Assembly (NCBI GenBank): GCA_036373775.1
Contig: JAZAUD010000008.1
Coordinates: 2,835 to 66,834, forward strand
Direction of reading: 5' to 3'
Length of the DNA: 64,000 nt
Source: Oscillospiraceae bacterium
GTDB taxonomy: Bacteria > Bacillota > Clostridia > Oscillospirales > Ruminococcaceae
Part shown: positions 28,286 to 49,735 of the stretch, piece after piece
How positions within the stretch are numbered: position 1 is the first letter of the stretch
How the letters are laid out: each line of letters begins with the position of its first letter
Translations under genes and position numbers: made by a program
Notes under the pieces: model-generated
Database searches by the model: none
What the model saw: only the letters and a program-made list of their open reading frames with translations
Told to the model about the DNA's origin: nothing

Positions 28286-28311
28286 GGATGCTTCCTCCTC
28301 TCAGTATCGGA

Positions 28312-28569: not shown

Positions 28570-28586
28570 AGCGTTTTCCTCCTATC

Positions 28587-28790: not shown

Positions 28791-28804
28791 GCTAACTCCC
28801 CTCC

Positions 28805-30018: not shown

Positions 30019-30035
30019 GCTTAACCTCCTTGGGA

Positions 30036-30377: not shown

Positions 30378-30397
30378 GATTGTTCCTCCTTCCGCAA

Positions 30398-30682
30398 TTA
30401 CTTCTTGCCGTTATTAGATGTCTTAGAGCCTGCGTGACCCTTGAAAGTTCTGGTCGGTGCAAATTCACCGAGCTTATGTCCTACCATATCCTCAGTGACA
30501 TATACCGGCACGTGCTTTCTGCCGTCATGCACTGCAAAGGTATGACCTACAAAATCAGGGAAGATTGTAGAAGAGCGGCTCCATGTTTTGAGCACTTTCT
30601 TCTCGCCGGCTTCGTTCATAGCCTGTACTCTCTTCAGGAGGACTTCCTGAACGTAAGGACCTTTTTTGATACTTCTGCTCAT
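30398..30682 (-). CDS. rpsS: 30S ribosomal protein S19
   Basis: [11 protein letters not shown]..., [29 protein letters not shown]. Confidence 0.95.
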
Positions 30683-30704
30683 CGCTTAAGCTCCTCCTTT
30701 CCGA

Positions 30705-31538
30705 TTACTTGCCGTTACGGCGTTTTACGATATACTTATCAGTGCGGTTGTGTGTCTTTCTGGTCTTATAACCCAAAGCAGGCTTACCCCATGGGGTAAC
30801 AGGTCCGGGACGACCAACAGGGGATTTACCTTCACCACCACCATGAGGATGGTCGCAGGGGTTCATAACAGAACCACGAACGATAGGTCTCCAACCCATA
30901 TGACGCTTTCTACCAGCCTTACCATAGTTCACATTCTCATGGTCAATATTGGAAACTTGTCCAATGGAAGCCATGCACTCAACCGGAACTCTTCTCATTT
31001 CGCCAGAGGGAAGACGAATCAAAGCGAACTTATCTTCTTTACCCATCAGCTGTGCCATATTACCAGCACTTCTTACCAGCTGTGCGCCCTTTCCGGGGTA
31101 CAGCTCAATTGCATGGATGAAAGTACCAACCGGAATATCAACCAATTTCAGAGCATTACCCGGTTTGATGTCTGCATCTGCACCAGAACGAACCACATCG
31201 CCAACTTTCAGACCATTGGGAGCGATGATATAACGCTTTTCGCCATCTTCATACTGAACCAATGCGATAAATGCGCTTCTGTTCGGGTCATATTCCAGAG
31301 TCAGAACCTTTGCATCCATACCGGTCTTATTGCGCTTGAAATCGATAACACGGTACTTTCTTCTGTTTGCGCCACCTCTGTGACGAACGGTAATGCGCCC
31401 ATAGCTATTGCGACCGCTTTTCTTTTTCAGCGGTTCAAGCAAGCTTTTCTCCGGTTCAGTTTTAGAGAGTACAGAATAATCTGTAACAGTCATCTGACGA
31501 CGTGAAGGAGAAGTGGGCTTATAGCTTTTAATTGCCAT
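30705..31538 (-). CDS. rplB: 50S ribosomal protein L2
   Basis: [14 protein letters not shown]..., [16 protein letters not shown]. Confidence 0.95.
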
Positions 31539-31634
31539 TTCAAATTCACTCCTTGATGTTTGATTATCGGGGTTTCAATGCTCCACTGAAATGCAGTGGA
31601 GAAACAAGGCATTCCCCATAGTAAAGGGCGATTC

Positions 31635-31967
31635 TTAGAACATTCCTTCAAAGAATTCGATTGTTCCCTTCTTCTTGTCGGCTTTCTTAGTACCCTTCGG
31701 ATTTTCCGGATTCGGGTTAATGGTAACGATTGCCTTCTTATAAGAAGAAGTCTTACCAACAAATCTGCCCATTCTCTTCTGTCTGCCGTCGCAGTTCATT
31801 GTATTGACCTTGACAACTTCTACATTGAAGAGTTCTTCAACAGCAGCCTTGATTTCCATTTTATTGGCATCCTTAGCTACCTGAAAAGTGTACTTATGCA
31901 GAGGGAGGTAATCTGTAGCCTGCTCTGTAATGACAGGGCGAATAATAATATCCTGTGCTGCTTTCAT
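31635..31967 (-). CDS. rplW: 50S ribosomal protein L23
   Basis: IIRPVITEQA..., FQVAKDANKMEIKAAVEELF. Lys-rich C-terminal extension. Confidence 0.9.
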   Translation of the reverse strand: MKAAQDIIIRPVITEQATDYLPLHKYTFQVAKDANKMEIKAAVEELFNVEVVKVNTMNCDGRQKRMGRFVGKTSSYKKAIVTINPNPENPKGTKKADKKKGTIEFFEGMF

Positions 31968-32590
31968 TATGCGTACACCTCCTCGATTTTTGCAATGGCA
32001 TTCTTAGGAGCAATCATCTTGCCACCATTGAGAATGTCATATACATTCAGGGTGTTGACAGCTGCAGTCTTGACACCTGCGATATTGTTTGCGCTTCTGT
32101 AGACCTTGGGGTCTGCTTCTGCGGTAACAATGAGTGCTTTCTTCTCTACGCCCAAAGCGTTGAGCATTGCAGCGATTTTCTTTGTTTTGAATTCATCCAT
32201 TGTGAGAGTATCCAAAACAATGAGATTCCCTTCCTGAACCTTAGTAGAAAGAGCGGACTTCATAGCCAGTCTGCGAACCTTCTTATTCAGTGTATATCTG
32301 TAGCTTCTGGGCTTAGGGCCAATTGCAACACCACCATGAACCCACTGCGGAGCTCTGATAGAACCCTGTCTTGCATGACCTGTCCCCTTTTGTCTCCACG
32401 GCTTCTTACCACCGCCTCTTACTTCTGTACGAGTGAGAGTGGACTGTGTACCCTGACGCTGGTTTGCAAGGTAGTTGACAACTACAGCATGCATAACGGA
32501 AACATTCGGTTCAATGCCAAAGACTGCATCATTCAGTTCAGTTTCGGAAACTTCACTGCCAGCCATGTTGTAAACTTTCACTTTTGCCAT
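31967..32590 (-). CDS. rplD: 50S ribosomal protein L4
   Basis: RQGTQSTLTRTEVRGGGKKPWRQKGTGHARQGSIRAPQW. Confidence 0.95.
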   Translation of the reverse strand: MAKVKVYNMAGSEVSETELNDAVFGIEPNVSVMHAVVVNYLANQRQGTQSTLTRTEVRGGGKKPWRQKGTGHARQGSIRAPQWVHGGVAIGPKPRSYRYTLNKKVRRLAMKSALSTKVQEGNLIVLDTLTMDEFKTKKIAAMLNALGVEKKALIVTAEADPKVYRSANNIAGVKTAAVNTLNVYDILNGGKMIAPKNAIAKIEEVYA

Positions 32591-38937: not shown

Positions 38938-39630
38938 ATGAATTCCGATTTTCCTAGAATTATTGCTCTCCAGCGGAAAGAGCGACAAATCAGCCAAAAA
39001 CAAGCAGCTGCTGACCTCGGCATCTCTCAGGCTCTGCTTTCTCATTATGAGAAAGGTATCCGTGAATGTGGGCTTGATTTTTTGGTTAAGATTGCAGATT
39101 ATTATAATGTTTCCTGTGATTATCTGCTTGGACGCACCCCAGAACCAGAAGGAAAAACGATTTCTATTGAAGATATTCCAGATGATGACGGAAATAACAG
39201 TATGCCCAGTCCGGAAGTTGTGGCTTTCAATCGTAAAATTATCAATAATTCCATCAGTCTGCTTTTCTCCCTTGCACAAAAAGCCAATAGCATTACCCTC
39301 ATCAAGGAAATGTCTTCTTATTTAATGCTGAATGTTTATAAGCTCTTTCGCATTGTCTATAATGCCAATCCTCATAATGACCAAAAATTATTTTCCGTTC
39401 CCAAAGTTGTCGCCAATGATGATGCTAGTGCCATTGTCAGCATGAATGAAGCCAATATCAAGGCGGCTTCCAGTGGCATTCCCATTGGGGAAAATGATTG
39501 TGTCAAGGATTCAGAGGTATTATATCTCACTACTGCTATTTTGTCACAAACCTATCCGGAATATTCTTCTTCCTTGCTGAATTTAATCAAAATCAGTGAG
39601 GATAGTATCGATAAAAAACGTAATGCCTGA
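38938..39630 (+). CDS. XRE-family HTH transcriptional regulator with C-terminal domain of unknown function
   Basis: IIALQRKERQISQKQAAADLGISQALLSHYEKGIRECGLDFLVKIADYYNVSCDYLLG. Confidence 0.85.
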   Translation: MNSDFPRIIALQRKERQISQKQAAADLGISQALLSHYEKGIRECGLDFLVKIADYYNVSCDYLLGRTPEPEGKTISIEDIPDDDGNNSMPSPEVVAFNRKIINNSISLLFSLAQKANSITLIKEMSSYLMLNVYKLFRIVYNANPHNDQKLFSVPKVVANDDASAIVSMNEANIKAASSGIPIGENDCVKDSEVLYLTTAILSQTYPEYSSSLLNLIKISEDSIDKKRNA

Positions 39631-39646: not shown

Positions 39647-39679
39647 AACGGGAAAGATATGGTATCTTTCCCGTTTTTT
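39647..39679 (+). terminator. strong hairpin terminator shared by the XRE gene and the convergent seven-gene operon
   Basis: AACGGGAAAGATA-TGG-TATCTTTCCCGTT followed by TTTT. Confidence 0.7.
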
Positions 39680-39681: not shown

Positions 39682-41058
39682 TTAAATCAATGGATTGATA
39701 ATGAAAAAAATCGGTGTGAACAAATTCAGTAAGTATACAACCAGACATACGCCCCAATAACCACAGAATGCTATCCCCAGTACAATCAGCTGTTGCAATT
39801 CCAGTGTCCCTACTTGTGTCATGTAGTAGGATACTAAAAGTCCTGTGAATGTTATCGACATTCCAATGCATTTCGCCCTTCCAAAATATTGGTACAATGT
39901 CGAACCAAAAGGCTTTACTAATGGAATGGTTATCCACCACATAATTGGTAAAAGTTCTTCTACATCCTTATCAAGAGGAAATTCACAAATTTTACAGGAA
40001 AGCGCAAAAAAGACCATCATCAATACACATCGGCATACCACTGAACCCCTTGACTTGGTTTTTGCACTTCCATACATCATGACAAGCTCAAAACTTTCCC
40101 CTTCCCATTTTTCTTTCATTCCCAGATAATTCGCAAATAATACACTAATGAGCATCCCCAAAACCTGAAAGACTATCATCAGATTCCCCACTGTGAAATA
40201 TTCCCTGATTTCTTCCGGCAATTCCTCCAAAGGTATCACAGGAAGGTCATAATTCTGGCATGGCACTAACCAGAGAAATGCACCATATCCCAATACCAGC
40301 AAAACCCCTATGGGACGCATCAATTTTCCCATGTATTTCCCTGCTTTGATAATCATTAAATCAATCGCAAATGTGTAATAAAAGCCTAATGCACTCAACC
40401 AAAATATCCCATGTTCAGAAAATTTTTGCCATTCATTCTCATGCTGGTAAAACACCATAAACCCCAATAAATACAAGCCAATGGCAATCATGAAATTGCA
40501 ACATTTTTCAATGCTCATGGATGTTCGGGTAGAAGCCCATATTTCCTTACTGAGGGATGTAATTTTTTCGCCCATTGCATTGGGCTTTTCCACGGTGATG
40601 TCTTCGCCTTTTTCGATTTTTTTCACTATCTGAGCATAGAATGAAGTTTCGCTCATTTGCTTCATTCGTTGTTCAATTTCGGTTTTGATTTTGTCAATCT
40701 GTTTTTGATAGCGGTCAATCGAACGGCTGTAAAAATAGCGGAACAATGCATAAACTTCATAAACCAGAAAGAATACAATTGTAATCATGGTCAGTTCTAT
40801 CAAATATGGTAAAATCTCCCAATTGCATAACGTAGCCAAAAAATCTTCCCAATATTCATGAAATACAAATAGCCCCGCAAAAAGAAGCACGGCAAAAATT
40901 TTTTTTGCTACGAGACTGTTTCGCCTTTGCTGATAGAATGTATTGGAATCAATCGCTGAATCGTAGGTTGATTGTAATTCATCAAGGATTTCTTTTGTTT
41001 CCTGCCCCACATTATTGTACTCTCTGCTAATATCAATGAAAGCTTGTGATAATTTCAT
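39682..41058 (-). CDS. polytopic membrane protein of unknown function (last gene of operon)
   Basis: 458 aa. N-terminal soluble/coiled segments, then many hydrophobic helices. No motif recognised. Confidence 0.7.
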   Translation of the reverse strand: MKLSQAFIDISREYNNVGQETKEILDELQSTYDSAIDSNTFYQQRRNSLVAKKIFAVLLFAGLFVFHEYWEDFLATLCNWEILPYLIELTMITIVFFLVYEVYALFRYFYSRSIDRYQKQIDKIKTEIEQRMKQMSETSFYAQIVKKIEKGEDITVEKPNAMGEKITSLSKEIWASTRTSMSIEKCCNFMIAIGLYLLGFMVFYQHENEWQKFSEHGIFWLSALGFYYTFAIDLMIIKAGKYMGKLMRPIGVLLVLGYGAFLWLVPCQNYDLPVIPLEELPEEIREYFTVGNLMIVFQVLGMLISVLFANYLGMKEKWEGESFELVMMYGSAKTKSRGSVVCRCVLMMVFFALSCKICEFPLDKDVEELLPIMWWITIPLVKPFGSTLYQYFGRAKCIGMSITFTGLLVSYYMTQVGTLELQQLIVLGIAFCGYWGVCLVVYLLNLFTPIFFIINPLI

Positions 41059-41061
41059 GGT

Positions 41062-43605
41062 TTATCCTTCTCCTTCCTGTAATCCAATGTACTTCAAATA
41101 CCCAATGGGGACGGTTTTATTCAAAAATTGGAATCCCCACATTGCATCTGAATGATTGGAATAAATACAGTCTGTTGCATTAGGATTGATTAAGCCAAGA
41201 TGCGCCATAAAAATATTACTTCTGTTATAGGTCTGGAATTCTGCGGAAAGTATTTGTAATCTTGAAAAAAGTTTCCTTTGCTGTTCAATGGGGGCGGTAC
41301 TATCCAATAATACCGCTTTGATACGGCTTTTCAATTCGTTGCAGTGTTCGCCTTTGTAGGTGTAAAGTTCAAGATTTTGCTGTAACCAATACAAATAAGA
41401 CATTGTTCCATAATCATGGTAATATTGACGGATTTTTTTCTTGTGCTTTTCATCTGCATGACTTTCCAGAAAATCGAATAACAATTCAAAACGTTCATAC
41501 AACACAGATGATAACAGTCGGTAAAACGGTCTGACGGATTCTTCATATCCCCACATACAAAGAATCGCTAAAAATTCCCAATCGTCCACAATCGGCACTT
41601 GTAATGGTGTCGGGAGATAGAGCGTGTTTTTCTCCCTCAAAAGATAATCAATCAGTTCATTCACATTATGACAGCCACAGTAAACAGTGTTCTGGCTCTC
41701 CGAAAAGCGAAATTCTTTCAACCATCTGCAAGCAATTTTCAAGCCGTCAATACTATCCTGTGAATACTTTGTGATTTGTTTCAGGGCTTTCAATTCTGTC
41801 TCTTCATAATGGGGTTGATGCTGATACCATTCCAGCATGATTTCAGAGACAAGAAAACTATCACAAATTTTGGTAATCCTGCCACGATTCAACATTCTTG
41901 TGACAGTATTTCCTAATTCCCTGATATTGTGAAACTGAAACCCCTGCCATGCAAACCATTGGTAATGGTTCAATCTCATAATCACCTTGGCAAGTCCGAC
42001 ATCATTCCAGAAAGGTGTCTGCTTTTCAGTTTTCCCGACTGCGTAACGCTTCATAATATCATCAAGGAAACGTGTGGTTTCAAATTCTGCACTTTGTGAG
42101 GAAAAAAAATCTTTGATATAGCCATTATAGAGTAATTCTTTTGCGGAATTCCAATTTTCACGAGTCCAAAGCAACTGCGCCACTTCTTCAGAATCCCAGC
42201 ATTCTTTTCTGAAAAGTTTTAATGCCCTTGTGAAAATTTTCGCATCCTGATAATTTCCGATTTCGTGCGCTAATGACCTGTCACCAGCAAGCCAACGTTT
42301 GACTTTTTCATACTGGAAACGCTGAATAATATCATATTGCAGTAACCCACGAATCAATATTTCAAAAAAACTTTCATCTTTGCGGATTTCATCCAATTCA
42401 TAGTAGGTATTACTCATCATTGCATGGTTAATTCTTGCCCTCTGTTCTTCTACCCCCATACGGCTATAATGTCGCAGTAAATCCGAATACATCATATGAC
42501 CTTTGTACAATGTCCAGAGTGTTTGCCCAAATGAATAATAATCCGATGCCGGAACAATTTCATTTAACATCAATTCCGGCGCATAATAGCCTAATGTTCC
42601 AGTTTTGGTTTTATCAATCGTGAATTCATCCCCACGCAAAGAACAGGTAATTCCAAAATCACCAATGACAACTTCTCCATGATACCAGTATAAATTATCC
42701 GGCTTGACATCTCTATGCACAAATCCAGCTTCATGGAATTGGTGCAAGGCTTCATTGATTGCCGGAATCACTTTCCTGCATAAAATATAATAGGGAATTT
42801 TCCCCTGTTGTTTGCCTAAGTCACCCTCTTCACAAAAAGGATAAATTTCTACATAATAATCTTGACCATTGATATTCACCGTGCCATAATCCAGCAAAGG
42901 CAATATATGCGAATTGGGTTCATGGCTTGCACGGGTCAGAAAATTCAATACCTTTTCACGGCTTTTTCTCTTGGTAATACTATCTTTTGGAGTAACGGAT
43001 TTCAGGATTCTTGCAACTAAAGGCTCATTATCATTTTGTGAATGACAGCGATAAATTTCAGATTCTCCACTATCCGCACTTACCACTTGTTTCCCATCAA
43101 TCAAAAATGTTTCCCCTTTGGCACTGGTAAATTGCACTGTACCATACAAAAGCACTTTCTTTCCGGTCTGCATTTGCTGTATGGTTTCCTGTTGTGGGAC
43201 GGTGGGAATTCGTTGGTTATTGTCCACTTGTGGGACGGTGGGAATTCGCTGGTTATTGTCTACTTGTGGGACGGTGGGAATTCGTTGGTTATTGTCTACT
43301 TGTGGGACGGTGGGAATTCGCTGGTTATTGTCTACTTGTGGGACGGTGGGAATTCGTTGGTTATTGTCTACTTGTGGGACGGTGGGAATTCGTTGGTTAT
43401 TGTCTACTTGTGGGACGGTGGGAATTCGTTGGTTATTGTCTACTTGTGGGATGGTGGGAATTCGTTCAGAGTCCCATTCATCATCATCTCCATGAATGAC
43501 AACAGGAACAGACGACACAAAAGGCTGTTCCGGCTTATCAGATTCTTCATTTGGAAGTGTACGATTCTTAAATGAAAAATTGGAATTGTTGAGATTATTC
43601 TCCAT
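41062..43605 (-). CDS. Hanks-type Ser/Thr protein kinase with N-terminal 12-aa tandem repeats and a large C-terminal helical domain
   Basis: VARILK, HRDVKPDN, IGDFG, GTLGYYAPE. About 450 aa of C-terminal region without TM segments. Repeats (R)IPTVPQVDNNQ x7.6. Confidence 0.85.
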   Translation of the reverse strand: MENNLNNSNFSFKNRTLPNEESDKPEQPFVSSVPVVIHGDDDEWDSERIPTIPQVDNNQRIPTVPQVDNNQRIPTVPQVDNNQRIPTVPQVDNNQRIPTVPQVDNNQRIPTVPQVDNNQRIPTVPQVDNNQRIPTVPQQETIQQMQTGKKVLLYGTVQFTSAKGETFLIDGKQVVSADSGESEIYRCHSQNDNEPLVARILKSVTPKDSITKRKSREKVLNFLTRASHEPNSHILPLLDYGTVNINGQDYYVEIYPFCEEGDLGKQQGKIPYYILCRKVIPAINEALHQFHEAGFVHRDVKPDNLYWYHGEVVIGDFGITCSLRGDEFTIDKTKTGTLGYYAPELMLNEIVPASDYYSFGQTLWTLYKGHMMYSDLLRHYSRMGVEEQRARINHAMMSNTYYELDEIRKDESFFEILIRGLLQYDIIQRFQYEKVKRWLAGDRSLAHEIGNYQDAKIFTRALKLFRKECWDSEEVAQLLWTRENWNSAKELLYNGYIKDFFSSQSAEFETTRFLDDIMKRYAVGKTEKQTPFWNDVGLAKVIMRLNHYQWFAWQGFQFHNIRELGNTVTRMLNRGRITKICDSFLVSEIMLEWYQHQPHYEETELKALKQITKYSQDSIDGLKIACRWLKEFRFSESQNTVYCGCHNVNELIDYLLREKNTLYLPTPLQVPIVDDWEFLAILCMWGYEESVRPFYRLLSSVLYERFELLFDFLESHADEKHKKKIRQYYHDYGTMSYLYWLQQNLELYTYKGEHCNELKSRIKAVLLDSTAPIEQQRKLFSRLQILSAEFQTYNRSNIFMAHLGLINPNATDCIYSNHSDAMWGFQFLNKTVPIGYLKYIGLQEGEG
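43192..43466 (-). repeat. 36-nt in-frame tandem repeat, about 7.6 copies, inside the kinase gene
   Basis: TTGTGGGACGGTGGGAATTCG(T/C)TGGTTATTGTC(T/C)AC is repeated head-to-tail. The only differences are 1-2 synonymous positions, plus a single non-synonymous difference (V->I) in the partial terminal copy. Confidence 0.95.
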
Positions 43606-44380
43606 TTGTCGCTGTCACATCCTTCCTGATGAGAATGACACTAATATTATCTTTTGAACCATATTCCATTGCAGATTCTTTCAATTTCAGGCAACATTCA
43701 TTCAAGTTTTCACTGTTGCGGTAAGCTACCAATATATCACGAATTTGTTCTTCCTTCAAAGCATCACTGATACCATCAGAACAAATCATGAACAAATCAC
43801 GCTCTTGCATATCATCTGAAAAATCTACCACTCTGGGATTGACTTTCCCATCCAGTCCCAAACAATTGGTAATCACATTTTTTCTTTCGTGGTGAAATGC
43901 TTCCTCTGGGGTAATTTCTCCAGAATCCAACATTTCTTGTACTAGTGAATGGTCTTTTGAAAGGCGCATCAAATATTGATAGCGTAACCGGTAGACACGA
44001 CTGTCACCCACATTGCACACAAATAAATGTTCATCATCTGCATAAATTCCAGCGATTGTTGTGAAAAGGGCATTCGGGGTATGTTCTTTTACTTTGGTCA
44101 AATATACCTTTTCATTGGCGGATTCTATGGCTTCAATGACATCATCCATTTGTTTCCCTTCATGATAAGTTTTCCTTGCGAATACTTCACAGGAGATTTC
44201 AGCGGCTCTGTCACCGCTCAGCCTTCCCCCTACACCATCACAAACCGCAACACTGATATAAGGCGTTTCCAATGTTCCACTGATTACCCCTTTGGAAAGT
44301 AATTTTGTTCCAATGACTGCACGGTCATCATTATGGTCTTCACTTGCTCCAATATCAACTAATCCGGCATACTTCCACAT
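43595..44380 (-). CDS. PP2C-family Ser/Thr phosphatase
   Basis: DRAVIG, VAVCDGVGG, VGDSRVY, CSDGISD, DNISVILI. 11-nt overlap with the kinase gene. Confidence 0.85.
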   Translation of the reverse strand: MWKYAGLVDIGASEDHNDDRAVIGTKLLSKGVISGTLETPYISVAVCDGVGGRLSGDRAAEISCEVFARKTYHEGKQMDDVIEAIESANEKVYLTKVKEHTPNALFTTIAGIYADDEHLFVCNVGDSRVYRLRYQYLMRLSKDHSLVQEMLDSGEITPEEAFHHERKNVITNCLGLDGKVNPRVVDFSDDMQERDLFMICSDGISDALKEEQIRDILVAYRNSENLNECCLKLKESAMEYGSKDNISVILIRKDVTATNGE

Positions 44381-44382
44381 AT

Positions 44383-46290
44383 TTAAGCCTCCTTGGTGAG
44401 ATTCACAGCTCCGTCTACAGTTTCTACCTTAGTAAATTTCACAGCTCCATCCACAGTATCTACTTTGATAATGTCCCCTTCCTGACAGGATGCTTCAAAA
44501 ATAAATTCTGCTAATGGATTGATATATTTTTCTTCCATCATGTTGCCAATTCCACGACCGCCCATTTCCAGCACTTCATCACAATCAGAAAGCTTATCAT
44601 AATATTCTAATGCCGTTTCAGAGGTTTTCACTTCAATTTTATTTTGCTTGGCGATTCTGGTATTGATTTTATTCACCTGTCCACGAACAATGGCTTTCGC
44701 TGCTTCCGGACGAATAAAATCATAGACAATCAAATTATTGCCGATACGGTTCAAAACTTCCGGTTTGAAATGGTTTTTAATAGCGGCAATCACTCTGGGC
44801 TGAATCTCTTCATAGGTTTCACTTGGAAATACAAGCTGTTCCCTGCGTTCTCTTCCATCTGCATCAATATATTGTCTGGTAATGCCTAAATTGCTGGTAA
44901 AAATAATCAATGTTTCAGAGAAATAAACCGTATTTCCCTGACCGTCTGTCATTCGTCCGTCTTCCAAAATCTGTAAAAATTTATCCATAATGGAAGGATG
45001 CGCTTTTTCAATTTCATCAAATAGCAAAATAGAAAAAGGTTTTTCCTTGATAGCATTCGTCAATTGTCCACCGGCTTCATACCCTACATACCCTGGGGGC
45101 GCACCAAATAATTTCTGGTCTGCGTGGGCTTCGGAAAATTCACTCATATCAAAACGAATACAATTATTCTCATCTCCGAAAAGTTGTTCTGCCAAAGCCT
45201 TGGTGAGTTCCGTTTTTCCTGTACCCGTAGGCCCTGCAAAAAATAAAACACCTCTTGGCTTATTCTGTCCGGATGAATGCTGTAAACCTGATAAGCCTGC
45301 TACTGCTCTTTTCACAACGTTGACGGTTCTGGCAATTGCCAAATCTTGTCCCATGACACGCTTTTTCAAAAGCTCTGCTAGATTGGCGATTTTCTCACGG
45401 TCAATGGAATGCCACATATTTTCAATAATGCCATATTTATAAATAGACACTGCATCCAATAATTCCGTATCGGGCTTTTTTTGGAGCAATCTCTGATATA
45501 AGTTCCTAAGTTCTTTCAATTCACGGTGTTTCAAGCCATCTGTCACGTCAATGAACTTATCGTGTACTTGCATCAATGCTTCATTTTCTTGAAATTCCGT
45601 ATATTCCTTATCAACAAAAATGGTTCTCATTTCCTTATCAGGGTCAGGAATGGAAATGGTACGGACATTAGGATTATTATAGAAAAACCATGCCGGCAAA
45701 TCGTTGAATTTTTCAACTACCATTATCAAAGTATTGAATTGTTCATTGATTTTGGCAGCGTTCAAAGAGGCAAATAATAAATTGAGGAACATTTTATTCT
45801 CTTCCGGTTCAAGGGTTGTCGGAGAGGAAATATACCGTGAAACGAAATTCATGACAACTGTCACAGGCTTTTCACGGTCAGTATCAACCAATGCATTCCG
45901 GATTGTCGAAGAAAGCCGTTCAATGTCATCTAATTTGCAAGCTTTGCGAAAAATCCTATCTGGAGAAAATGAAAAGCTTTCATCTTTATCAGGCTTGCCG
46001 TATTTTCTGAGCATTTCCTCCACATTTCCATAAGCATCCCCGAAACGGTTATAAATTCCTGTTGCAGGGTCACAGAACATGAATTCATAGTCACAAGTCC
46101 CATGATTTTCATTGAAAAGCTTGAATAATGTCATATTCAAGTCAACAAATGCCATTGGGGTCATATTTTCTTCCCCTTCCGGATACACTGGGTAGAAATC
46201 ATTGATATTTCCCTCTAAGATGAATGTACTCTTGATACCCTTGAAACTAGCAATTTCCCTCTGCCATTTCGGGACGGTTTGTTTCTGCAT
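44383..46290 (-). CDS. AAA+ ATPase, ClpA/ClpB D2-type module with a non-canonical N-terminal half
   Basis: FFAGPTGTGKTELTKALA (Walker A), ILLFDEIEKAHP (Walker B), FKPEVLNRIGN (sensor/arginine region). The N-terminal ~330 aa has no Walker A. Confidence 0.8.
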   Translation of the reverse strand: MQKQTVPKWQREIASFKGIKSTFILEGNINDFYPVYPEGEENMTPMAFVDLNMTLFKLFNENHGTCDYEFMFCDPATGIYNRFGDAYGNVEEMLRKYGKPDKDESFSFSPDRIFRKACKLDDIERLSSTIRNALVDTDREKPVTVVMNFVSRYISSPTTLEPEENKMFLNLLFASLNAAKINEQFNTLIMVVEKFNDLPAWFFYNNPNVRTISIPDPDKEMRTIFVDKEYTEFQENEALMQVHDKFIDVTDGLKHRELKELRNLYQRLLQKKPDTELLDAVSIYKYGIIENMWHSIDREKIANLAELLKKRVMGQDLAIARTVNVVKRAVAGLSGLQHSSGQNKPRGVLFFAGPTGTGKTELTKALAEQLFGDENNCIRFDMSEFSEAHADQKLFGAPPGYVGYEAGGQLTNAIKEKPFSILLFDEIEKAHPSIMDKFLQILEDGRMTDGQGNTVYFSETLIIFTSNLGITRQYIDADGRERREQLVFPSETYEEIQPRVIAAIKNHFKPEVLNRIGNNLIVYDFIRPEAAKAIVRGQVNKINTRIAKQNKIEVKTSETALEYYDKLSDCDEVLEMGGRGIGNMMEEKYINPLAEFIFEASCQEGDIIKVDTVDGAVKFTKVETVDGAVNLTKEA

Positions 46291-46293
46291 AAA

Positions 46294-46887
46294 TTATACT
46301 CCTTTCCGGTGGTGAATGCCAACGGAAATCAATTGATTTCCCATATAAACATTTTGTATGATACGCCCTTGTTTGAGATAGGTTTCATATTCTGTTTGGT
46401 ATTGCTTTTTCAGATAAATGATATTCTGATTCAGAGAACCACGCAACACGGCGGTTTCCTCATTCAGTTCCTGTATGTATCGCCCATCAATCAAGACAGC
46501 AATATTTTTTTGCAAATCTTCCAACATTGACGGACTCCATAATTTTTTCAATTCCTGCATGGTGTAACCAGTATATACCAGAATATCTTCCGTGATTTCC
46601 TGTAAGCCCTCTAATAATTGCAATAATTCTTCTGGTTGTTCGAGGGGGTCTCCTCCTGTAATGGTGATGCCTTCAATGGGTTGCTGTGCGTGGATATTCT
46701 GAATCATTTGCAGAATCGTTTCCACTGGTCTGTTTTTTCTTCCGACTGTATCCCATAATTCCGGATTGGCACAGCCCTTGCAATGCTTTGTACATCCCAC
46801 TGTCCAAATGACAAGCCTTTTGTGAATTCCCAATGATACAACCGGAAATAATATCCTGTCAATGTACATTTCAATCAATTCTGACAA
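46294..46887 (-). CDS. NrdG-like radical-SAM activase (4Fe-4S, CX3CX2C)
   Basis: VIWTVGCTKHCKGCANPELWD, ITITGGDPLEQPEE. The size (197 aa) and motif context fit glycyl-radical-enzyme-activase / NrdG-type proteins. Confidence 0.75.
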   Translation of the reverse strand: MSELIEMYIDRILFPVVSLGIHKRLVIWTVGCTKHCKGCANPELWDTVGRKNRPVETILQMIQNIHAQQPIEGITITGGDPLEQPEELLQLLEGLQEITEDILVYTGYTMQELKKLWSPSMLEDLQKNIAVLIDGRYIQELNEETAVLRGSLNQNIIYLKKQYQTEYETYLKQGRIIQNVYMGNQLISVGIHHRKGV

Positions 46888-47536
46888 TAAAGGATACTGT
46901 ATTTGCTAATGTCAAAATTTTTCCATTTTCCAATAAAACAGGTTCACCAGAATTGAGAATCATTCCATTATATTTGGTTTGATTTGTCCGGCTCATATGA
47001 CGAAGTACCCATGAATGATGTTCGAATGTAATCCCGCAATGTTCGCCGGAAACAGTTCTCATATCTCTGGACTGGAAAAAATCAGCTCCATATTTCCCAT
47101 ATCTGCCAAGCGTTCCGCCTTGCTGGTCAATTTCAATCCGGAAATGGGTGTTCATTTCCTCTAAGTACAAACGATTTCCCTTTACAGGGGCTTGCATTGG
47201 CTGAGGTGCGTTGACAGAGGATGAATTTTCCACGGTTCGGGTTTCAATCTGCCACAAAAAGCCGTCAATCGGGTGTTCTTTTCGACAGCCATTACAGAAA
47301 AATCTTGTTACTGTTCCATTGGGTAAGATAGTTTTGGTCTGTGATTCTGGACAGAGAACAAAGTATTCCATTCCATTGGAAACAGGGGCTGTCACCTGTG
47401 GGACAGTTGGTGCAGATGCCGGAATATCAACGACAACAGTGTGATGCTCTTCCATCAGAGGTTCTGCACAAATTTCACAAAAATCTGTTCCCGGTTCATT
47501 TTCATAACCGCATTGTTTACATTTGATAAAAGCCAT
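46871..47536 (-). CDS. zinc-ribbon + FHA domain protein
   Basis: N-terminal CKQCGYENEPGTDFCEIC, a second Cys cluster CPES...CNGC, C-terminal FHA (TLGR...VSGEH...YNG...LENGKILTL). 17-nt overlap with the activase gene. Confidence 0.8.
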   Translation of the reverse strand: MAFIKCKQCGYENEPGTDFCEICAEPLMEEHHTVVVDIPASAPTVPQVTAPVSNGMEYFVLCPESQTKTILPNGTVTRFFCNGCRKEHPIDGFLWQIETRTVENSSSVNAPQPMQAPVKGNRLYLEEMNTHFRIEIDQQGGTLGRYGKYGADFFQSRDMRTVSGEHCGITFEHHSWVLRHMSRTNQTKYNGMILNSGEPVLLENGKILTLANTVSFIVRID

Positions 47537-47539
47537 TGT

Positions 47540-48766
47540 TTAACTCTCCTTACGCATCGTTTTCAATTCCTGACGTTTCTGTTGCTTTTTCGCTCTTGAA
47601 CCGGAATGTTCCTGTAATCCGGAACGAGTACGGATTTTTTTATTAAATCGCTTATCAGGAGGCATATGCTTTCTGGTTTGCAGAATCACTCCACGGAGGG
47701 CGAGTTCTGCGGTAATTTCGGGGTGCATCTGACAAAATGCACATTGTTTTTGAAATAACTTTTCGTCTTCCTCTGCTGAAATTTTATCATCAAAGCCGAT
47801 ACCTACCACACGCATGGTCACTTGTTGTTCATCAGAGACAAATACATGAATTGCTGTATCATCCCCGACACCATAAAGCACTTGATGATTGTCTGCTTCT
47901 TCCAATTGTTCAGAAGATACAATCTGATAGCCGTGCTGGCTCATCACGTCATCAATTTGTCTGCGGATATATTCACGGGAAATCTGATTTTTAGCAAGTT
48001 CTTTGGCTTCTTCCATGGCGGTCTGAATTTCCTCCAATGACGAAAAGTCCGTGATGGCTTTCAAGGGAATGGGAGAATCAAAACATTCCTGACAATATTC
48101 TTCATAGGCATCAGACAGATATTCCATTTCATTGTGAATCTGCATGGAAATTTTGCTGTATTCCTCGTGAAGTCTCTGCAATTTCCGACTTTTTTCATCA
48201 AGGGGAATATCACTTTTTTCCAATTTCTGTAAATCATGATTCAATAAGAGTATGGTATTTTTGTGCGTGCCTGTCATGGGTTCACAGTTCAGAAATTCTG
48301 TCATTTCCTCACTGAAAGCCTGATATTGTTGCTGTACTTCTTTTTGGGAAATGGCTGGTACTTTGGGAGCTGATGTTTCAGACATTCTACGAATTTGAAC
48401 TTGATGAGCATTCCCTAATTTTCTGCTTTCTCTTTGCAACTCACTAAAATGATAGGCTGTTTTGACAGATTCCATTCGTTTTTGTTCCGACTGCATTTTA
48501 CCATGAAATTCCTGCATGATGAGAGTATGTGTTTTTCGAATCGATTCCATGTCAAGCAGTTCATTTCCATGTTTGACCTGTCTCAAGAGTTTTTGCAATT
48601 CTTTTTTGCAAGATTTCTGTAATTCCTGCATATTCACGCACATTTCCACCTCGTGAATTGATTTCTGAATCATTTCTGCTAATTCACGCCGTCCCTGTCT
48701 TGCATTCATCAATTTTGTCAATTCCTGCTGACGAATTGCAGCAGTATCTACTTTTGGACCACTCAA
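47540..48766 (-). CDS. coiled-coil protein of unknown function (first gene of operon)
   Basis: 408 aa, long heptad-like K/E/Q-rich stretches, basic C-terminal tail. GGAGG-type RBS upstream. Confidence 0.65.
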   Translation of the reverse strand: MSGPKVDTAAIRQQELTKLMNARQGRRELAEMIQKSIHEVEMCVNMQELQKSCKKELQKLLRQVKHGNELLDMESIRKTHTLIMQEFHGKMQSEQKRMESVKTAYHFSELQRESRKLGNAHQVQIRRMSETSAPKVPAISQKEVQQQYQAFSEEMTEFLNCEPMTGTHKNTILLLNHDLQKLEKSDIPLDEKSRKLQRLHEEYSKISMQIHNEMEYLSDAYEEYCQECFDSPIPLKAITDFSSLEEIQTAMEEAKELAKNQISREYIRRQIDDVMSQHGYQIVSSEQLEEADNHQVLYGVGDDTAIHVFVSDEQQVTMRVVGIGFDDKISAEEDEKLFQKQCAFCQMHPEITAELALRGVILQTRKHMPPDKRFNKKIRTRSGLQEHSGSRAKKQQKRQELKTMRKES

Positions 48767-48802
48767 ATGCTGACACCTCCTAAATTTATCATACCTGTTT
48801 TC

Positions 48803-48831
48803 ATTCTACCATATCTCATGAAATTTGTCAA
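48803..48831 (-). promoter_or_regulatory. promoter of the seven-gene operon
   Basis: Minus strand reads TTGACA-17 nt-TAGAAT, about 35 nt upstream of the ATG at 48766. Confidence 0.6.
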
Positions 48832-48844: not shown

Positions 48845-49735
48845 TTATTCACAAATATTGTTTTTTTCGTGCAAAGAAAAATTGCTTGTTATCACCTGTT
48901 CCGGACATACCGCCCGACACTTCCCACAGCGAATGCATTCACTGCTATTCAATTCTTGGGGGACATTTAAAGCCATGGGGCAAACTTTTTCACAAGCATG
49001 ACAATGCGTACATTGCATGGCATTGACGTGCATCTGATGGAAGGAAAAGCGATGGAACAACGAATAAAATGCACCCAATGGGCAAACATACCGACAGAAA
49101 AAACGGCTGATTTTCATTGCCCCTATGATGACAACTACCAATAAGAATACCTTCCAATAAAATAGCGTTCCTACCAATTTTCGTAACTGTTCATTCACTG
49201 CTACATGAAATAAACCGCCTTCCATTGTTCCTGCTGGACAGATGTATTCACAGAACCATGGTTCACCTGTTCCATATTGGTCAGTAATCACCGCCGGAAA
49301 CAGTAGCACCAAAAACAATAATATCCCATATTTCAAGTATCTCAACGGCTTATCGATTTTTTTCGGAATGCTGATTTTCTTCACTGGAATTTTATCAAGC
49401 AAATCTTGAAACAAGCCAAACGGACACAGAAACCCACATATCAACCGCCCTAATAATACCCCAAATACCATTAAAGTCCCCAATGCATAAAATGAGATTT
49501 TATGCTTCTGTCCGCCTGCTACGGTCTGTAATGCGCCAATCGGACACGCTCCCAATGCGGAAGGACACGAGTAGCAATTCAAAACCGGCACACAAATTCC
49601 CTTGCTCTTTCCGGTGTAGATTTTCCCTTTCATGATTCCCATGAAATAGCCATTGAAAAAGACCGTTGCAATTATCTGCACCAAAAGCCGGAATTTCCCC
49701 TGCTTTTTTACCCGATTCCGATGCATTCCAGACAT
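48845..49735 (-). CDS. membrane-bound 4Fe-4S polyferredoxin (NapH/MauN-like)
   Basis: CYSCPSALGACPIG, CPFG, CPAG, CTHCHACEKVCPM, CIRCGKCRAVCPE, plus TM segments. Confidence 0.8.
   Translation of the reverse strand: MSGMHRNRVKKQGKFRLLVQIIATVFFNGYFMGIMKGKIYTGKSKGICVPVLNCYSCPSALGACPIGALQTVAGGQKHKISFYALGTLMVFGVLLGRLICGFLCPFGLFQDLLDKIPVKKISIPKKIDKPLRYLKYGILLFLVLLFPAVITDQYGTGEPWFCEYICPAGTMEGGLFHVAVNEQLRKLVGTLFYWKVFLLVVVIIGAMKISRFFCRYVCPLGAFYSLFHRFSFHQMHVNAMQCTHCHACEKVCPMALNVPQELNSSECIRCGKCRAVCPEQVITSNFSLHEKNNICE

What the first reader, a model, noticed from the sequence alone, without database searches (positions are those of the whole stretch)
39682..48831. Seven-gene operon coupling an FHA / PP2C / Hanks-kinase triad to an orphan NrdG-type radical-SAM activase, a ClpB-D2-type AAA+ ATPase, a coiled-coil protein and a polytopic membrane protein
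Seen: seven minus-strand ORFs run from 48766 down to 39682. They are separated by 2-3 nt gaps or overlap by 11-17 nt. A TTGACA-17-TAGAAT promoter (48803-48831) precedes them and a 13-bp hairpin terminator (39647-39679) closes them, so this looks like one transcription unit. Motifs read directly from the translations: kinase VARILK / HRDVKPDN / DFG / GTLGYYAPE; phosphatase VAVCDGVGG and CSDGISD; FHA GR..SGEH..NG; activase GCTKHCKGCANPELW; ATPase GPTGTGKT and LLFDEIEKAHP. Established: kinase + PP2C + phospho-Thr-reader triads act as switches for secretion systems. An analogous vWA/PP2C/kinase triad (TerY-P) has been reported as an anti-phage system. NrdG-type activases normally install a glycyl radical on a partner enzyme. 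ClpA/B D2-type AAA+ modules are protein unfoldases. Inference: I know of no named system with this gene combination. No glycyl-radical enzyme, protease, nuclease or secretion gene is adjacent. This is a candidate phospho-regulated stress or conflict module (for example anti-phage or abortive infection). Its output could be the radical-SAM/AAA+ pair and/or the membrane protein. An XRE regulator lies convergently at 38938-39630.
Basis: partly seen in the sequence, partly recalled or inferred. Interest (0 to 1): 0.85.

Follow-up and report, generated by a model that had tools for sequence, protein, structure and literature searches.

The report
Undescribed kinase–unfoldase–radical-SAM gene system
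Seven tightly packed genes in an anaerobic gut bacterium form a widely shared but undescribed system that couples a phosphorylation switch to a protein-unfolding motor and a radical-generating enzyme with no known target; it is probably a stress or anti-virus module.

Summary

Six of the gene families travel together:
- g1, a coiled-coil protein
- g2, a zinc-ribbon/FHA protein
- g3, an NrdG-type radical-SAM activase
- g4, a Clp-type AAA+ ATPase
- g5, a PP2C phosphatase
- g6, a Hanks kinase

They co-occur in 31 reference genomes from several phyla, all anaerobes, and in about 500 metagenome loci. Distant clades carry them in rearranged, mostly circularly permuted gene orders. That is strong evidence for one functional system.

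No PADLOC, NCBIfam or Pfam model and no paper in the library describes it.

New details:
- The ATPase is a double-ring ClpC/ClpB-like unfoldase with a dead first ring.
- The kinase has a hypervariable tail of 2-12 threonine motifs, probably FHA docking sites.
- The g1 protein has a conserved MSGPK N-terminus and a domain with no clear structural relative.
- No glycyl-radical partner can be found.

The peripheral parts are fast-evolving or swapped between clades: the membrane protein here, and Hhe-like helicase-nuclease, DUF4236-nuclease-like, LRR and MORN genes elsewhere. This pattern fits a conflict (defence) system, but the function is unproven.

The parts
48803..48831 (-). Sigma-70-type promoter TTGACA-17-TAGAAT with an extended -10 TG.
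   Evidence: 11 of 12 matches; sequence. The function is inferred; there are no transcript data.
48774..48781 (-). Shine-Dalgarno sequence AGGAGGTG. The GGAGG core lies 9 nt upstream of the g1 TTG start.
47540..48766 (-). g1, 408 aa. It has an invariant N-terminus (MSGPK), long helical hairpins that are variable in sequence, and a conserved alpha/beta domain formed by residues 5-11 plus about 244-380. It has no Pfam family. It is a system-specific protein and a candidate client or scaffold.
   Evidence: AF2: pLDDT 85, pTM 0.74. Foldseek found no hit with E < 1e-3. Conservation.
46871..47536 (-). g2, 221 aa. It has an N-terminal CxxC...CxxC zinc ribbon, a second Cys-rich module and a C-terminal FHA domain with the GR / SxxH / N phospho-Thr-binding residues. 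It is the probable pThr-reading adaptor.
46294..46887 (-). g3, an NrdG-type radical-SAM activase. It carries GCxxxCxxCxNPxxW, GGDP and the RGSxNQ signature, plus a conserved C-terminal extension of about 35 aa (...SVGI...). The likely true start is the ATG at 46869 (191 aa).
   Evidence: (TIGR02491 at 104.6 bits against a 126.1 cut-off).
44383..46290 (-). g4, 635 aa, a Clp/Hsp100-type double-ring AAA+ ATPase. Residues 1-290 are a degenerate D1: EGNIND replaces Walker A and there is no DE Walker B. Residues 291-635 are an active D2 with GPTGTGKT, DEIEKA and the GYVG pore loop, plus D2-small. It has no N-domain, no M-domain and no ClpP-docking IGF/L loop.
   Evidence: AF2. Foldseek aligns about 650 columns to ClpC/ClpB/ClpA D1+D2. 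Conservation.
43595..44380 (-). g5, 261 aa, a PP2C Ser/Thr phosphatase (Stp1/IreP-like). It is the probable reset enzyme.
41062..43605 (-). g6, 847 aa, a cytoplasmic Hanks kinase. It has a disordered N-terminal tail with 9 threonine motifs (one RIPTIPQ followed by eight RIPTVPQ), an active kinase domain (about 150-440) and a fast-evolving C-terminal helical domain specific to this family (about 440-847). That domain has no Pfam match and is the probable sensor.
43192..43466 (-). A 36-nt tandem repeat, 7.6 copies at 97% identity, that encodes the VDNNQRIPTVPQ units of the kinase tail. Copy number varies between near-identical strains.
   Evidence: L001 (5-6 motifs) against L002 (10-11).
39682..41058 (-). 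g7, 458 aa, a polytopic membrane protein with a cytoplasmic coiled-coil loop. It is the least conserved component (about 28% identity) and is specific to this clade. It is a candidate effector or anchor.
39647..39679 (.). A 13-bp GC-rich hairpin between the convergent operon and the XRE gene. The U-tract is on the + strand only.
   Evidence: z = -4.4.

Best explanation
This is one member ('type A') of an undescribed six-gene core system of anaerobic bacteria, here extended by a clade-specific membrane protein.

**Shown**
- The core families are g1 (coiled-coil protein), g2 (zinc-ribbon/FHA protein), g3 (NrdG-type radical-SAM activase), g4 (ClpC/B-like double-ring AAA+ ATPase with a dead D1), g5 (PP2C) and g6 (Hanks kinase).
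- They are inherited together across phyla, even when the gene order is permuted.
- The catalytic motifs of g3, g4 (D2), g5 and g6 are intact in the window's proteins and conserved across clades.

**Inferred mechanism**
1. The cytoplasmic kinase senses a trigger through its fast-evolving C-terminal domain.
2. It phosphorylates the repeated Thr motifs of its own disordered N-terminal tail, and perhaps a similar TVPQ motif in the g2 linker.
3. The FHA protein docks multivalently on these pThr sites and brings in the two enzymes encoded directly downstream of it. The g2/g3 and g3/g4 junctions are only 1-3 nt, or a 17-nt overlap with the TTG start.
4. The Clp-like motor threads or remodels a client. 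The candidates are g1 or the kinase tail.
5. The radical-SAM activase abstracts a hydrogen from a protein client. This radical modification switches on an output.
6. The output is the membrane protein g7 in this clade and nuclease-type proteins in others, leading to growth arrest or defence.
7. PP2C keeps the switch off.

The most likely biological role is a conflict or abortive-infection type response.
For: **Co-inheritance**
- The order g1-g6 is the same in about 27 of the 31 genome loci. These include Fusobacterium, Fibrimonadales, Cloacimonadota and Oscillospiraceae.
- The metagenome scan found 503 loci. The 80 retrieved fall into 32 groups at 85% AAA+ identity. They carry the same six families in mostly circularly permuted orders: STK-cc-FHA-rSAM-AAA-PP2C, AAA-PP2C-STK-cc-FHA-rSAM, and rSAM-AAA-PP2C-x-STK-cc-FHA. 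A fourth order, rSAM-STK-cc-FHA-AAA, lacks PP2C and is not a simple rotation.

**Catalytic competence**
- Kinase, PP2C, rSAM and D2 motifs are conserved across all clades.
- The D2 GYVG pore loop is conserved and there is no ClpP-docking loop.

**pThr docking**
- The kinase tails of every clade carry 2-12 copies of a Thr-centred motif. The spacers vary and the copy number differs between near-identical strains.
- The FHA pThr-binding residues are conserved.

**Conflict-like features**
- The system is rare: 31 of 185,579 species genomes carry it.
- It occurs in several phyla and in different flanking contexts.
- There is a steep rate gradient. The window's g4 is about 80% identical to its type-A orthologues and g3 about 60%, against 29-39% for the kinase C-terminal domain and about 28% for g7.
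- Accessory genes are interchangeable. A DUF4011/Hhe-like helicase-REase (PADLOC PDC-S37, E = 0; Hhe, 2.5e-154) overlaps the kinase gene by 8 nt in Aristaeella lactis. DUF4236 proteins carry a type-IV-restriction-like C-terminus. LRR_5, MORN, DUF5050 and Sel1 proteins also occur.
Against: - There is no experimental or transcript evidence.
- No known effector domain (nuclease, protease, NADase, pore former) is present in this window. g7 has no recognisable family.
- The flanks here are housekeeping genes and a ribosomal-protein cluster lies about 8 kb away. A PADLOC scan of 124 flanking proteins from type-A loci found no recurrent defence family apart from extra kinases. Only the 25 most frequent families were visible.
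- The AAA+ and rSAM proteins are unusually conserved for immune genes.
- The system was not found on phages.
- The radical-SAM substrate is unidentified. No component has a Pfam Gly_radical domain or a conserved RVxG[YFW] loop.
- The pThr-FHA pairing is inferred from motif conservation only.
Confidence: 0.4

Rival explanations
1. A maintenance or repair module for glycyl-radical enzymes in strict anaerobes. After oxidative or other stress the kinase switch would recruit the Clp-like unfoldase to extract or refold damaged glycyl-radical enzymes encoded elsewhere (PFL, class III RNR and others). The NrdG-like activase would then re-install their radicals.
For: - g3 carries the full NrdG / GRE-activase signature and scores best against NrdG.
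- Every host is an anaerobe from rumen, gut, termite or digester samples.
- The AAA+ and rSAM proteins are highly conserved, as housekeeping enzymes are.
- The flanks in this window are housekeeping genes and include an Hsp20 gene.
- No partner enzyme is encoded in cis, which fits a substrate acting in trans.
Against: - The system is very rare (31 of 185,579 species), although glycyl-radical enzymes are common in anaerobes.
- The sensor and peripheral domains evolve fast, and the kinase tail is hypervariable.
- Relatives carry attached helicase-nuclease and restriction-like genes.
- The Hsp20 and ferredoxin neighbours are not conserved.
- This model gives no role to g1 or g7.
Confidence: 0.17
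2. The regulatory and energising module of an unrecognised envelope, secretion or cell-surface machine. It would be analogous to the type VI secretion threonine-phosphorylation pathway (PpkA / PppA / Fha1 with ClpV), with g7 or other membrane proteins forming the envelope part.
For: - The best NCBIfam match of g2 is the T6SS FHA protein TagH, and g4 matches TssH/ClpV at 1e-72.
- A membrane protein accompanies the core in most clades: g7, or the MORN-TM, DUF5050-TM and 2-TM proteins.
- LRR_5 and DUF5050 are domains typical of surface proteins.
- The distant variant L033 adds FtsK/SpoIIIE and HerA-like translocase ATPases.
Against: - No T6SS, T7SS or other secretion structural genes lie in or near any locus examined.
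- g4 lacks the ClpV N-domain and has a dead D1.
- The kinase has no transmembrane segment.
- The membrane components are not homologous between clades.
- The model does not explain the radical-SAM enzyme.
Confidence: 0.1
3. A peptide or protein maturation pathway (RiPP-like). The radical-SAM enzyme would modify a small precursor or the tail of g1, and the AAA+ ATPase would act as a chaperone or exporter helper.
For: - Kaur et al. 2020 (PMC7159879) proposed that a radical-SAM enzyme in the FtsH-vWA ternary systems modifies a peptide effector.
- g1 has an invariant exposed N-terminal peptide.
Against: - g3 has no SPASM or RRE domain.
- No short precursor gene, peptidase or ABC exporter is conserved with the core.
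- g3 is of the NrdG type, not a RiPP-type maturase.
Confidence: 0.07

Closest known systems
Type VI secretion threonine-phosphorylation pathway (PpkA kinase, PppA PP2C phosphatase, Fha1/TagH FHA protein, ClpV/TssH AAA+ ATPase)
   Same: It uses the same four protein classes in one locus: a Hanks kinase, a PP2C phosphatase, an FHA reader and a ClpB-family AAA+ ATPase. g2 hits TagH and g4 hits TssH in NCBIfam. The logic is the same: phospho-Thr-dependent recruitment around an unfoldase.
   Different: - No T6SS structural genes are present.
- The kinase is cytoplasmic, with no transmembrane or periplasmic domain.
- g4 lacks the ClpV N-domain and has an inactive D1.
- The hosts are mostly Gram-positive anaerobes.
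- The system adds an NrdG-type radical-SAM enzyme and the g1 protein, which have no T6SS counterpart.
TerY-P triad (vWA TerY protein + PP2C + Ser/Thr kinase), reported as an anti-phage system
   Same: A kinase/PP2C pair is coupled to a third protein in a compact, horizontally mobile operon. The triad is a candidate immune switch.
   Different: - No vWA/TerY domain is found in any of the seven proteins.
- PADLOC returns no TerY-P model for any of the seven proteins; its only hits are single-domain matches to other families.
- Three further conserved components are present: g1, the rSAM and the AAA+ ATPase.
Glycyl-radical enzyme / activase pairs, especially class III ribonucleotide reductase NrdD-NrdG
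   Same: g3 has the CX3CX2C cluster motif followed by NP..W, the GGDP SAM motif and the RGSxNQ motif of NrdG. NrdG is its top family hit (phrog_626).
   Different: - The score is below the NrdG equivalog cut-off (104.6 against 126.1 bits).
- g3 has a conserved extra C-terminal segment of about 35 aa.
- No NrdD, PFL or other Gly_radical-domain protein is found in the window or among the conserved cluster genes of the related loci.
ClpC with the MecA adaptor and the McsB phospho-arginine tagging system (Gram-positive protein quality control)
   Same: g4 superposes over both rings of ClpC (top Foldseek hits, E about 1e-27). The proposed logic is similar: a kinase-written phospho-mark is read by an adaptor that delivers clients to a Clp unfoldase.
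   Different: - The mark would be pThr read by a separate FHA protein, not pArg read by the ClpC N-domain.
- g4 has no N-domain, no M-domain, no ClpP-docking loop and a dead D1. The outcome is therefore remodelling, not degradation.
- The analogy is an inference.
NTP-dependent 'ternary' conflict systems (vWA-MoxR, FtsH and GTPase-centric systems; Kaur et al. 2020, eLife, PMC7159879)
   Same: The design principle is shared: a conserved AAA+/NTPase core with regulatory components, plus variable and interchangeable effector and sensor modules. Some of those systems include kinase/PP2C pairs, and one class includes a radical-SAM enzyme.
   Different: - The ATPase clade is different (Clp/Hsp100, not MoxR or FtsH).
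- There is no vWA component.
- This six-gene combination is not described in that paper.
Hhe / PDC-S37 single-gene helicase-nuclease defence candidates
   Same: In type-B relatives a protein of about 1,800-2,150 aa (DUF4011, SF1 helicase, REase_MTES_1575) matches PADLOC PDC-S37 (E = 0) and Hhe (2.5e-154). It lies directly upstream of the kinase gene and overlaps it by 8 nt in Aristaeella lactis.
   Different: This gene is absent from the window's type-A locus. Whether it is an effector of the system or only a neighbour is unknown.

Membership tests
TerY-P triad | A vWA (TerY) domain protein encoded with the kinase and phosphatase. | tested here: not met
   Pfam finds no vWA/TerY hit in any of the seven proteins. 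PADLOC returns no TerY-P model for any of the seven proteins; its only hits are single-domain matches to other families.
TerY-P triad | An adjacent PP2C phosphatase and Hanks Ser/Thr kinase. | tested here: met
   g5 is PP2C (Stp1-like, 2e-53). g6 is Pkinase at 2.5e-22 with intact VAIK-like K, HRD and DFG motifs. The two genes overlap by 11 nt.
T6SS threonine-phosphorylation pathway | T6SS core genes (TssA-M, Hcp, VgrG) in the locus. | tested here: not met
   No such families appear in the window neighbours. No further gene families recur with the core in the related loci, apart from the listed accessory genes.
T6SS threonine-phosphorylation pathway | An FHA protein, a PpkA-type kinase, a PppA PP2C and a ClpV-type AAA+ ATPase. 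| tested here: inconclusive
   All four classes are present. However, TagH scores 26 bits against a 120-bit cut-off and TssH 245 bits against 885. The kinase lacks a transmembrane segment and g4 lacks the ClpV N-domain.
Class III RNR activase NrdG (TIGR02491 equivalog) | A score above the curated equivalog cut-off. | tested here: not met
   104.6 bits against a cut-off of 126.1.
Class III RNR activase NrdG / GRE activases | The CX3CX2C [4Fe-4S] motif and the SAM-binding motifs. | tested here: met
   GCTKHCKGCANPELW, GGDP and RGSLNQ are present and conserved in 59 sequences.
Class III RNR activase NrdG / GRE activases | A cognate glycyl-radical enzyme (Gly_radical domain, RVxG[YFW] loop) encoded nearby. 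| tested here: not met
   - No Gly_radical hit.
- No such motif in any window ORF of 100 aa or more.
- The RVVGIGF segment of g1 lies inside a beta strand and is not invariant.
- The YKYGI segment of g4 corresponds, by my manual comparison with the ClpB linker sequence (recalled from memory, not a tool result), to the Clp-family TGIP linker motif.
- A partner encoded elsewhere in the genome cannot be excluded.
Class III RNR activase NrdG / GRE activases | Generation of a glycyl radical on a protein substrate. | not testable with these tools
   This needs anaerobic reconstitution and EPR.
Clp/Hsp100 class I (ClpA/B/C) | Two stacked AAA+ modules (D1 + D2) with a D2-small domain. | tested here: met
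   Foldseek aligns about 650 columns over D1+D2 of ClpC, ClpB and ClpA, with E down to 4e-27. AAA_2 and ClpB_D2-small are found.
Clp/Hsp100 class I (ClpA/B/C) | ATP-binding Walker A/B in D1; an N-terminal Clp_N domain; an M-domain (ClpB/C) or a ClpP-docking IGF/L loop (ClpA/C). | tested here: not met
   - In D1 the sequence is FILEGNINDFY where a P-loop is expected, and there is no acidic Walker B.
- There is no Clp_N hit.
- The protein is only 635 aa.
- There is no [ILV]G[FL] loop in the D2 insertion.
- All NCBIfam Clp models score far below their cut-offs.
Known PADLOC defence systems (Dodola, PDC-M37, PD-T4-6, MADS, Mokosh, Stk2) | Matches to all the genes that define the system, not to a shared domain only. 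| tested here: not met
   There are only local matches to the AAA core (residues about 349-476) and to the kinase catalytic domain. g1, g2, g3 and g7 have no hits.
Anti-phage defence system (generic) | Protection against phage when expressed. | not testable with these tools
   There is only contextual evidence: Hhe-like and restriction-like genes are attached in relatives, while no defence family recurs in the type-A flanks.

The most novel reading that the evidence does not exclude
A glycyl-radical-enzyme-type activase has been recruited away from metabolism into a signalling or immune machine. On phospho-Thr/FHA-mediated assembly, a Clp-like unfoldase would present a protein client to the NrdG-like enzyme. 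The client could be the g1 protein with its invariant exposed MSGPK N-terminus, or an invader protein. The enzyme would install a protein radical that acts as the system's trigger or weapon. This would be the first radical-based protein switch in prokaryotic conflict systems and the first role for this activase family that does not involve a glycyl-radical enzyme.
Probability: 0.25. Interest if true: 0.95.

Novelty: categorically new. Interest (0 to 1): 0.82.

Why it matters
**New use of a radical activase.** NrdG-type activases are known only as partners of glycyl-radical metabolic enzymes. Here one is locked into a conserved operon with a phospho-switch and a protein unfoldase, and no glycyl-radical enzyme is present. 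If the three act together, this defines a new use of radical chemistry: a regulated modification of a protein client. It would also define a new multi-component system class in gut and rumen anaerobes.

**A testable model.** The finding gives a concrete example of multivalent pThr-FHA signalling in bacteria, because the kinase tail carries a hypervariable array of threonine motifs.

**A possible defence role.** In relatives the core is linked to helicase-nuclease genes of defence type.

**A route to experiments.** The system occurs in a cultured organism, Aristaeella lactis WTE2008, on record NZ_CP069422.1. That makes direct experiments possible.

Tried and rejected
1. **g1 as the glycyl-radical substrate through its 'MRVVGIGF' segment.** Rejected. 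AF2 places it inside beta strand 315-324, and it is only partly conserved across clades.
2. **The invariant 'YKYGI' of g4 as a radical loop.** Rejected. It lines up with the Clp/Hsp100 D1-D2 linker motif (W)TGIP.
3. **The 'IDGFLW' segment of g2, after its second zinc module, as an NrdD-like glycyl site.** Rejected. It is conserved only within the Lachnospiraceae-type clade.
4. **g1 as a relative of a solved fold.** There is no sequence hit other than generic coiled coils. The best Foldseek match is the AdoMetDC-like N-domain of spermine synthase at E = 0.05, and Roadblock/LC7 matches are weaker. There are no viral matches. This is too weak to use.
5. **Phage or prophage origin.** No relatives were found in IMG/VR or in GenBank phage records.
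6. **The XRE gene and the upstream polyferredoxin gene as system components.** Neither is conserved next to the system.
7. **Defence-island enrichment around type-A loci.** The result is inconclusive. The PADLOC summary showed only extra kinases, and the table is limited to 25 rows.
8. **A broad alignment of distant D1-like domains.** It was too divergent for the metagenome scan, so a subset was used instead.
9. **Pfam scans of 39 g1 homologues and 10 kinases from all clades.** They found no hidden domain apart from DUF6273 on one kinase.
10. **Literature searches.** Six searches for combinations of the system's components gave no description of the system (a sixth failed on a query error). 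Two further searches, for DUF4236 and DUF4011, concerned the accessory genes.

Full report
**1. Observation**

The junctions are gaps of 2-3 nt and overlaps of 11 and 17 nt.

A TTGACA-17-TAGAAT promoter with an extended -10 TG lies at 48831-48803. An AGGAGG ribosome-binding site sits 9 nt before the TTG start of g1.

Every quoted motif is present. Pfam and NCBIfam confirm the domain calls:
- g2: zinc ribbon plus FHA.
- g3: Fer4_12 / Radical_SAM. NrdG TIGR02491 is the best family at 104.6 bits, below the 126.1 cut-off.
- g4: AAA_2 plus ClpB_D2-small.
- g5: PP2C, Stp1-like.
- g6: Pkinase.
- g1 and g7: nothing.

Three corrections apply.
- The 13-bp hairpin at 39647-39679 is real (z = -4.4), but its U-tract is on the + strand. 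It is first a terminator for the convergent XRE gene.
- g3 probably starts at the ATG at 46869. Database entries are 191 aa. That start leaves one base between the g2 stop and the g3 ATG (TGAAATG).
- g4 is not a bare D2 module (see section 3).

**2. One system, conserved and permuted**

Homologues of g4 are numerous in Lachnospiraceae-type gut and rumen assemblies. The first neighbourhoods retrieved showed the same seven-gene order in two unrelated flanking contexts.

A scan of one genome per species (185,579 species), using the system-specific N-terminal domain of g4, returned 31 loci. All are MAGs from rumen, gut, termite-gut or digester samples. They come from Lachnospiraceae, Ruminococcus, Blautia, Oscillospiraceae, Fusobacterium, Bacilli, Fibrimonadales and Cloacimonadota.

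phmmer with the seven window proteins shows g1-g2-g3-g4-g5-g6 in the same order in about 27 of these loci. A polytopic membrane ORF follows the kinase in most.

The D1-like domain family has 348 representatives at 50% clustering.

A metagenome scan seeded with distant members found 503 loci. Profile searches of the 80 retrieved loci show the same six families in 32 groups at 85% AAA+ identity. The gene orders differ between clades and most are circular permutations of one another:

| Type | Gene order |
|---|---|
| A (window) | cc-FHA-rSAM-AAA-PP2C-STK-membrane |
| B | STK-cc-FHA-rSAM-AAA-PP2C |
| C | AAA-PP2C-STK-cc-FHA-rSAM |
| D | rSAM-STK-cc-FHA-AAA (no PP2C; not a simple rotation) |
| E | rSAM-AAA-PP2C-x-STK-cc-FHA |

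Co-occurrence that survives gene-order shuffling across phyla is the strongest available evidence that the six proteins work together.

One relative is in a cultured organism, Aristaeella lactis WTE2008, on the 44-kb record NZ_CP069422.1.

No relatives were found in IMG/VR or in GenBank phage records.

**3. Anatomy of the parts**

*g4 (AAA+).* The AF2 model aligns over about 650 columns with both rings of ClpC, ClpB and ClpA. Residues 1-290 are therefore a D1 ring. Its P-loop is replaced by the highly conserved FKGIKSTFI(L/I)EGNIND, and it has no acidic Walker B. D2 keeps Walker A/B, the GYVG pore loop and D2-small. There is no Clp_N domain, no M-domain and no ClpP-docking loop. g4 is a stand-alone threading or remodelling motor, not a protease partner.

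*g3 (radical SAM).* It has the GRE-activase signature: CX3CX2C followed by NP..W, then GGDP and RGSxNQ. It also has a conserved C-terminal extension of about 35 residues.

*g1.* The AF2 model is confident (pLDDT 85, pTM 0.74). It shows long helical hairpins plus a compact alpha/beta domain completed by the N-terminal strand 5-11. The N-terminus MSGPK is conserved in all clades, including A. lactis. No solved or viral structure matches below E = 1e-3. No Pfam family matches any of 39 homologues.

*g2.* It has two Cys-rich zinc modules and an FHA domain with conserved pThr-binding residues.

*g6 (kinase).* It is cytoplasmic and its catalytic motifs are intact. Its C-terminal domain (about 440-847) is specific to this family, has no Pfam match and evolves fast.

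The N-terminal tail of g6 carries nine copies of RIPT[VI]PQ. Most of them are encoded by a 36-nt tandem repeat with 97% identity between copies. Orthologues carry 2-12 copies of [RH]IPT[MV]PQ with variable spacers. Two otherwise identical loci (L001 and L002) differ only in copy number. Other clades have their own Thr-centred tail motifs: T[VI]IN[PT], KTxxM and RTTxxL.

The motif and its threonine are conserved while the spacers and copy number are free to vary. This points to phospho-acceptor and FHA-docking sites. That conclusion is an inference.

**4. Evolutionary pattern and accessory genes**

Identity between the window's proteins and their type-A orthologues falls in this order:

| Protein or region | Identity |
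|---|---|
| g4 | about 80% |
| g3 | about 60% |
| g2 | about 58% |
| g1, g5, g6 | about 45% |
| g6 C-terminal domain | 29-39% |
| g1 middle region | 30-36% |
| g7 | about 28% |

g7 is confined to type A. Other clades carry different partners:
- Four membrane proteins: MORN-TM, a His/Ser-rich TM protein, a 2-TM protein and DUF5050-TM.
- An LRR_5 protein inserted between the rSAM and AAA+ genes.
- Sel1, DUF5685 and DUF6273 proteins.
- A DUF4236 protein whose C-terminus resembles a type IV restriction enzyme, in at least 9 groups, either upstream or downstream of the core.
- A DUF4011 / SF1 helicase / REase_MTES protein of 1,800-2,150 aa that matches PADLOC PDC-S37 (E = 0) and Hhe (2.5e-154). In A. 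lactis it overlaps the kinase gene by 8 nt.

A distant variant, L033, adds FtsK/SpoIIIE and HerA-like ATPases.

A conserved enzymatic core with interchangeable sensor-like and nuclease-like modules is the signature of conflict systems described by Kaur et al. 2020 (PMC7159879).

Several observations argue against this reading:
- The window's flanks are housekeeping genes (M23 peptidase, RluD-type synthase, histidine phosphatase, polyferredoxin, Hsp20, ThiF-family protein and a PP-loop ATPase), and a ribosomal-protein cluster is nearby.
- No defence family recurs in the type-A flanks, within the limits of the summary table.
- The XRE and ferredoxin neighbours are not conserved.

**5. Mechanism**

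*Shown.* The composition, the co-inheritance, the intact catalytic motifs, the dead D1 ring, the Thr-motif tail and the absence of any recognisable glycyl-radical partner are all observed directly. The partner search covered a Gly_radical domain, an RVxG[YFW] motif in the window and the candidate glycine loops in g1, g2 and g4, which were examined and rejected.

*Inferred.* The sequence of events would be:
1. The trigger is sensed by the variable C-terminal domain of the kinase.
2. The kinase phosphorylates its own tail.
3. The FHA adaptor g2 docks multivalently.
4. g2 recruits the closely linked g3 and g4.
5. The client, g1 or the tail, is threaded by g4 and radical-modified by g3.
6. An output is activated: g7 here, nucleases elsewhere.
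7. PP2C resets the switch.

I put about 0.4 on this overall reading, that is, a conflict or stress effector system gated by pThr-FHA.

The rivals are a glycyl-radical-enzyme repair module (0.17), an envelope or secretion regulator analogous to the T6SS threonine-phosphorylation pathway (0.10) and a peptide-maturation pathway (0.07). The remainder is left for something not yet imagined.

**6. Comparison with known systems**

The locus fails the defining features of every family considered:
- TerY-P: no vWA protein.
- T6SS threonine-phosphorylation pathway: no T6SS genes and no ClpV N-domain.
- NrdD-NrdG: below the cut-off and no NrdD.
- Canonical ClpA/B/C: dead D1, no N-domain, no M-domain, no ClpP loop.
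- PADLOC systems: domain-level hits only.

Its regulatory logic resembles the T6SS pathway and TerY-P. Its adaptor logic resembles pArg/McsB-ClpC. Its modular design resembles the NTP-dependent ternary conflict systems.

Six full-text searches for combinations of the system's components found no description of this gene set (a sixth failed on a query error). Two further searches, for DUF4236 and DUF4011, concerned the accessory genes. The library does not cover most subscription-journal papers, so prior description elsewhere cannot be fully excluded.

**7. Verdict**

This is a real, conserved and apparently undescribed multi-component system. Interest is high. A glycyl-radical-type activase embedded in a phospho-switch and unfoldase operon has no precedent, it is testable, and a cultured host exists. 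The function remains unproven.

Noticed in passing
window 43192-43466 (inside g6); L001 against L002: A near-perfect 36-nt tandem repeat (7.6 copies, 97% identity) encodes the kinase tail. Copy number differs between otherwise identical loci (5-6 against 10-11 motifs). It behaves like a contingency or VNTR locus. The long + strand ORFs across it (43042-43575 and others) are repeat artefacts.
   Followed up: yes
window 46869 against 46887: The start of g3 is probably the ATG at 46869, giving 191 aa as in database entries. That leaves one base between the g2 stop and the g3 start (TGAAATG), in place of the 17-nt overlap implied by the TTG start.
   Followed up: yes
window 47380-47420 (g2 linker, residues about 40-52): The linker of g2 contains a copy of the kinase-tail motif (SAPTVPQVT). 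Some orthologues have it too (L005: TVPQVT). g2 may itself be a kinase substrate, which would allow FHA-pThr self-association.
   Followed up: partly
window 48845-49735 (-) and 38938-39630 (+): A membrane polyferredoxin gene (Fer4_5 plus a dicluster domain) lies 78 nt upstream. It could in principle donate electrons to a radical-SAM enzyme. Neither it nor the convergent XRE gene is conserved next to the system in any related locus.
   Followed up: yes
L116 = NZ_CP069422.1 11872-40744 (Aristaeella lactis WTE2008): A cultured rumen isolate carries a type-B version on a 44-kb record. The order is DUF4011 helicase-nuclease (overlapping the kinase gene by 8 nt), STK, cc (MSGPK...), FHA, rSAM, AAA, PP2C, DUF6273 and a second kinase. 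A DUF4236 gene lies nearby. This is a usable experimental system.
   Followed up: partly
L006, L018, L019 (upstream of g1 homologues): Three type-A loci have two extra tandem genes upstream for kinases of about 560-660 aa with about 5 predicted transmembrane segments. These may be additional membrane-bound inputs.
   Followed up: no
L033 1-17000: This distant variant adds an FtsK/SpoIIIE-family ATPase (1128 aa), a HerA/DUF87-like ATPase (917 aa) and several small unknown proteins around the rSAM, kinase, FHA and AAA genes.
   Followed up: partly
L008 (Blautia sp.) and L009 ('Muribaculaceae bacterium'): These two MAGs from the same study carry nearly the same locus, although they are assigned to different phyla. 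This is probably a binning or label problem in L009 rather than recent transfer.
   Followed up: no
literature: bioRxiv 10.1101/2022.11.11.516204: [quoted passage not shown] This is a possible independent DUF4011-radical-SAM pairing. It was not examined.
   Followed up: no
window about 15000-32000: A ribosomal-protein / rpoA / secY / map-type cluster lies about 8 kb from the operon. In this genome the system therefore sits in core chromosomal territory, not in an obvious island. GC content across the operon (0.38-0.41) is not distinct from its surroundings.
   Followed up: partly
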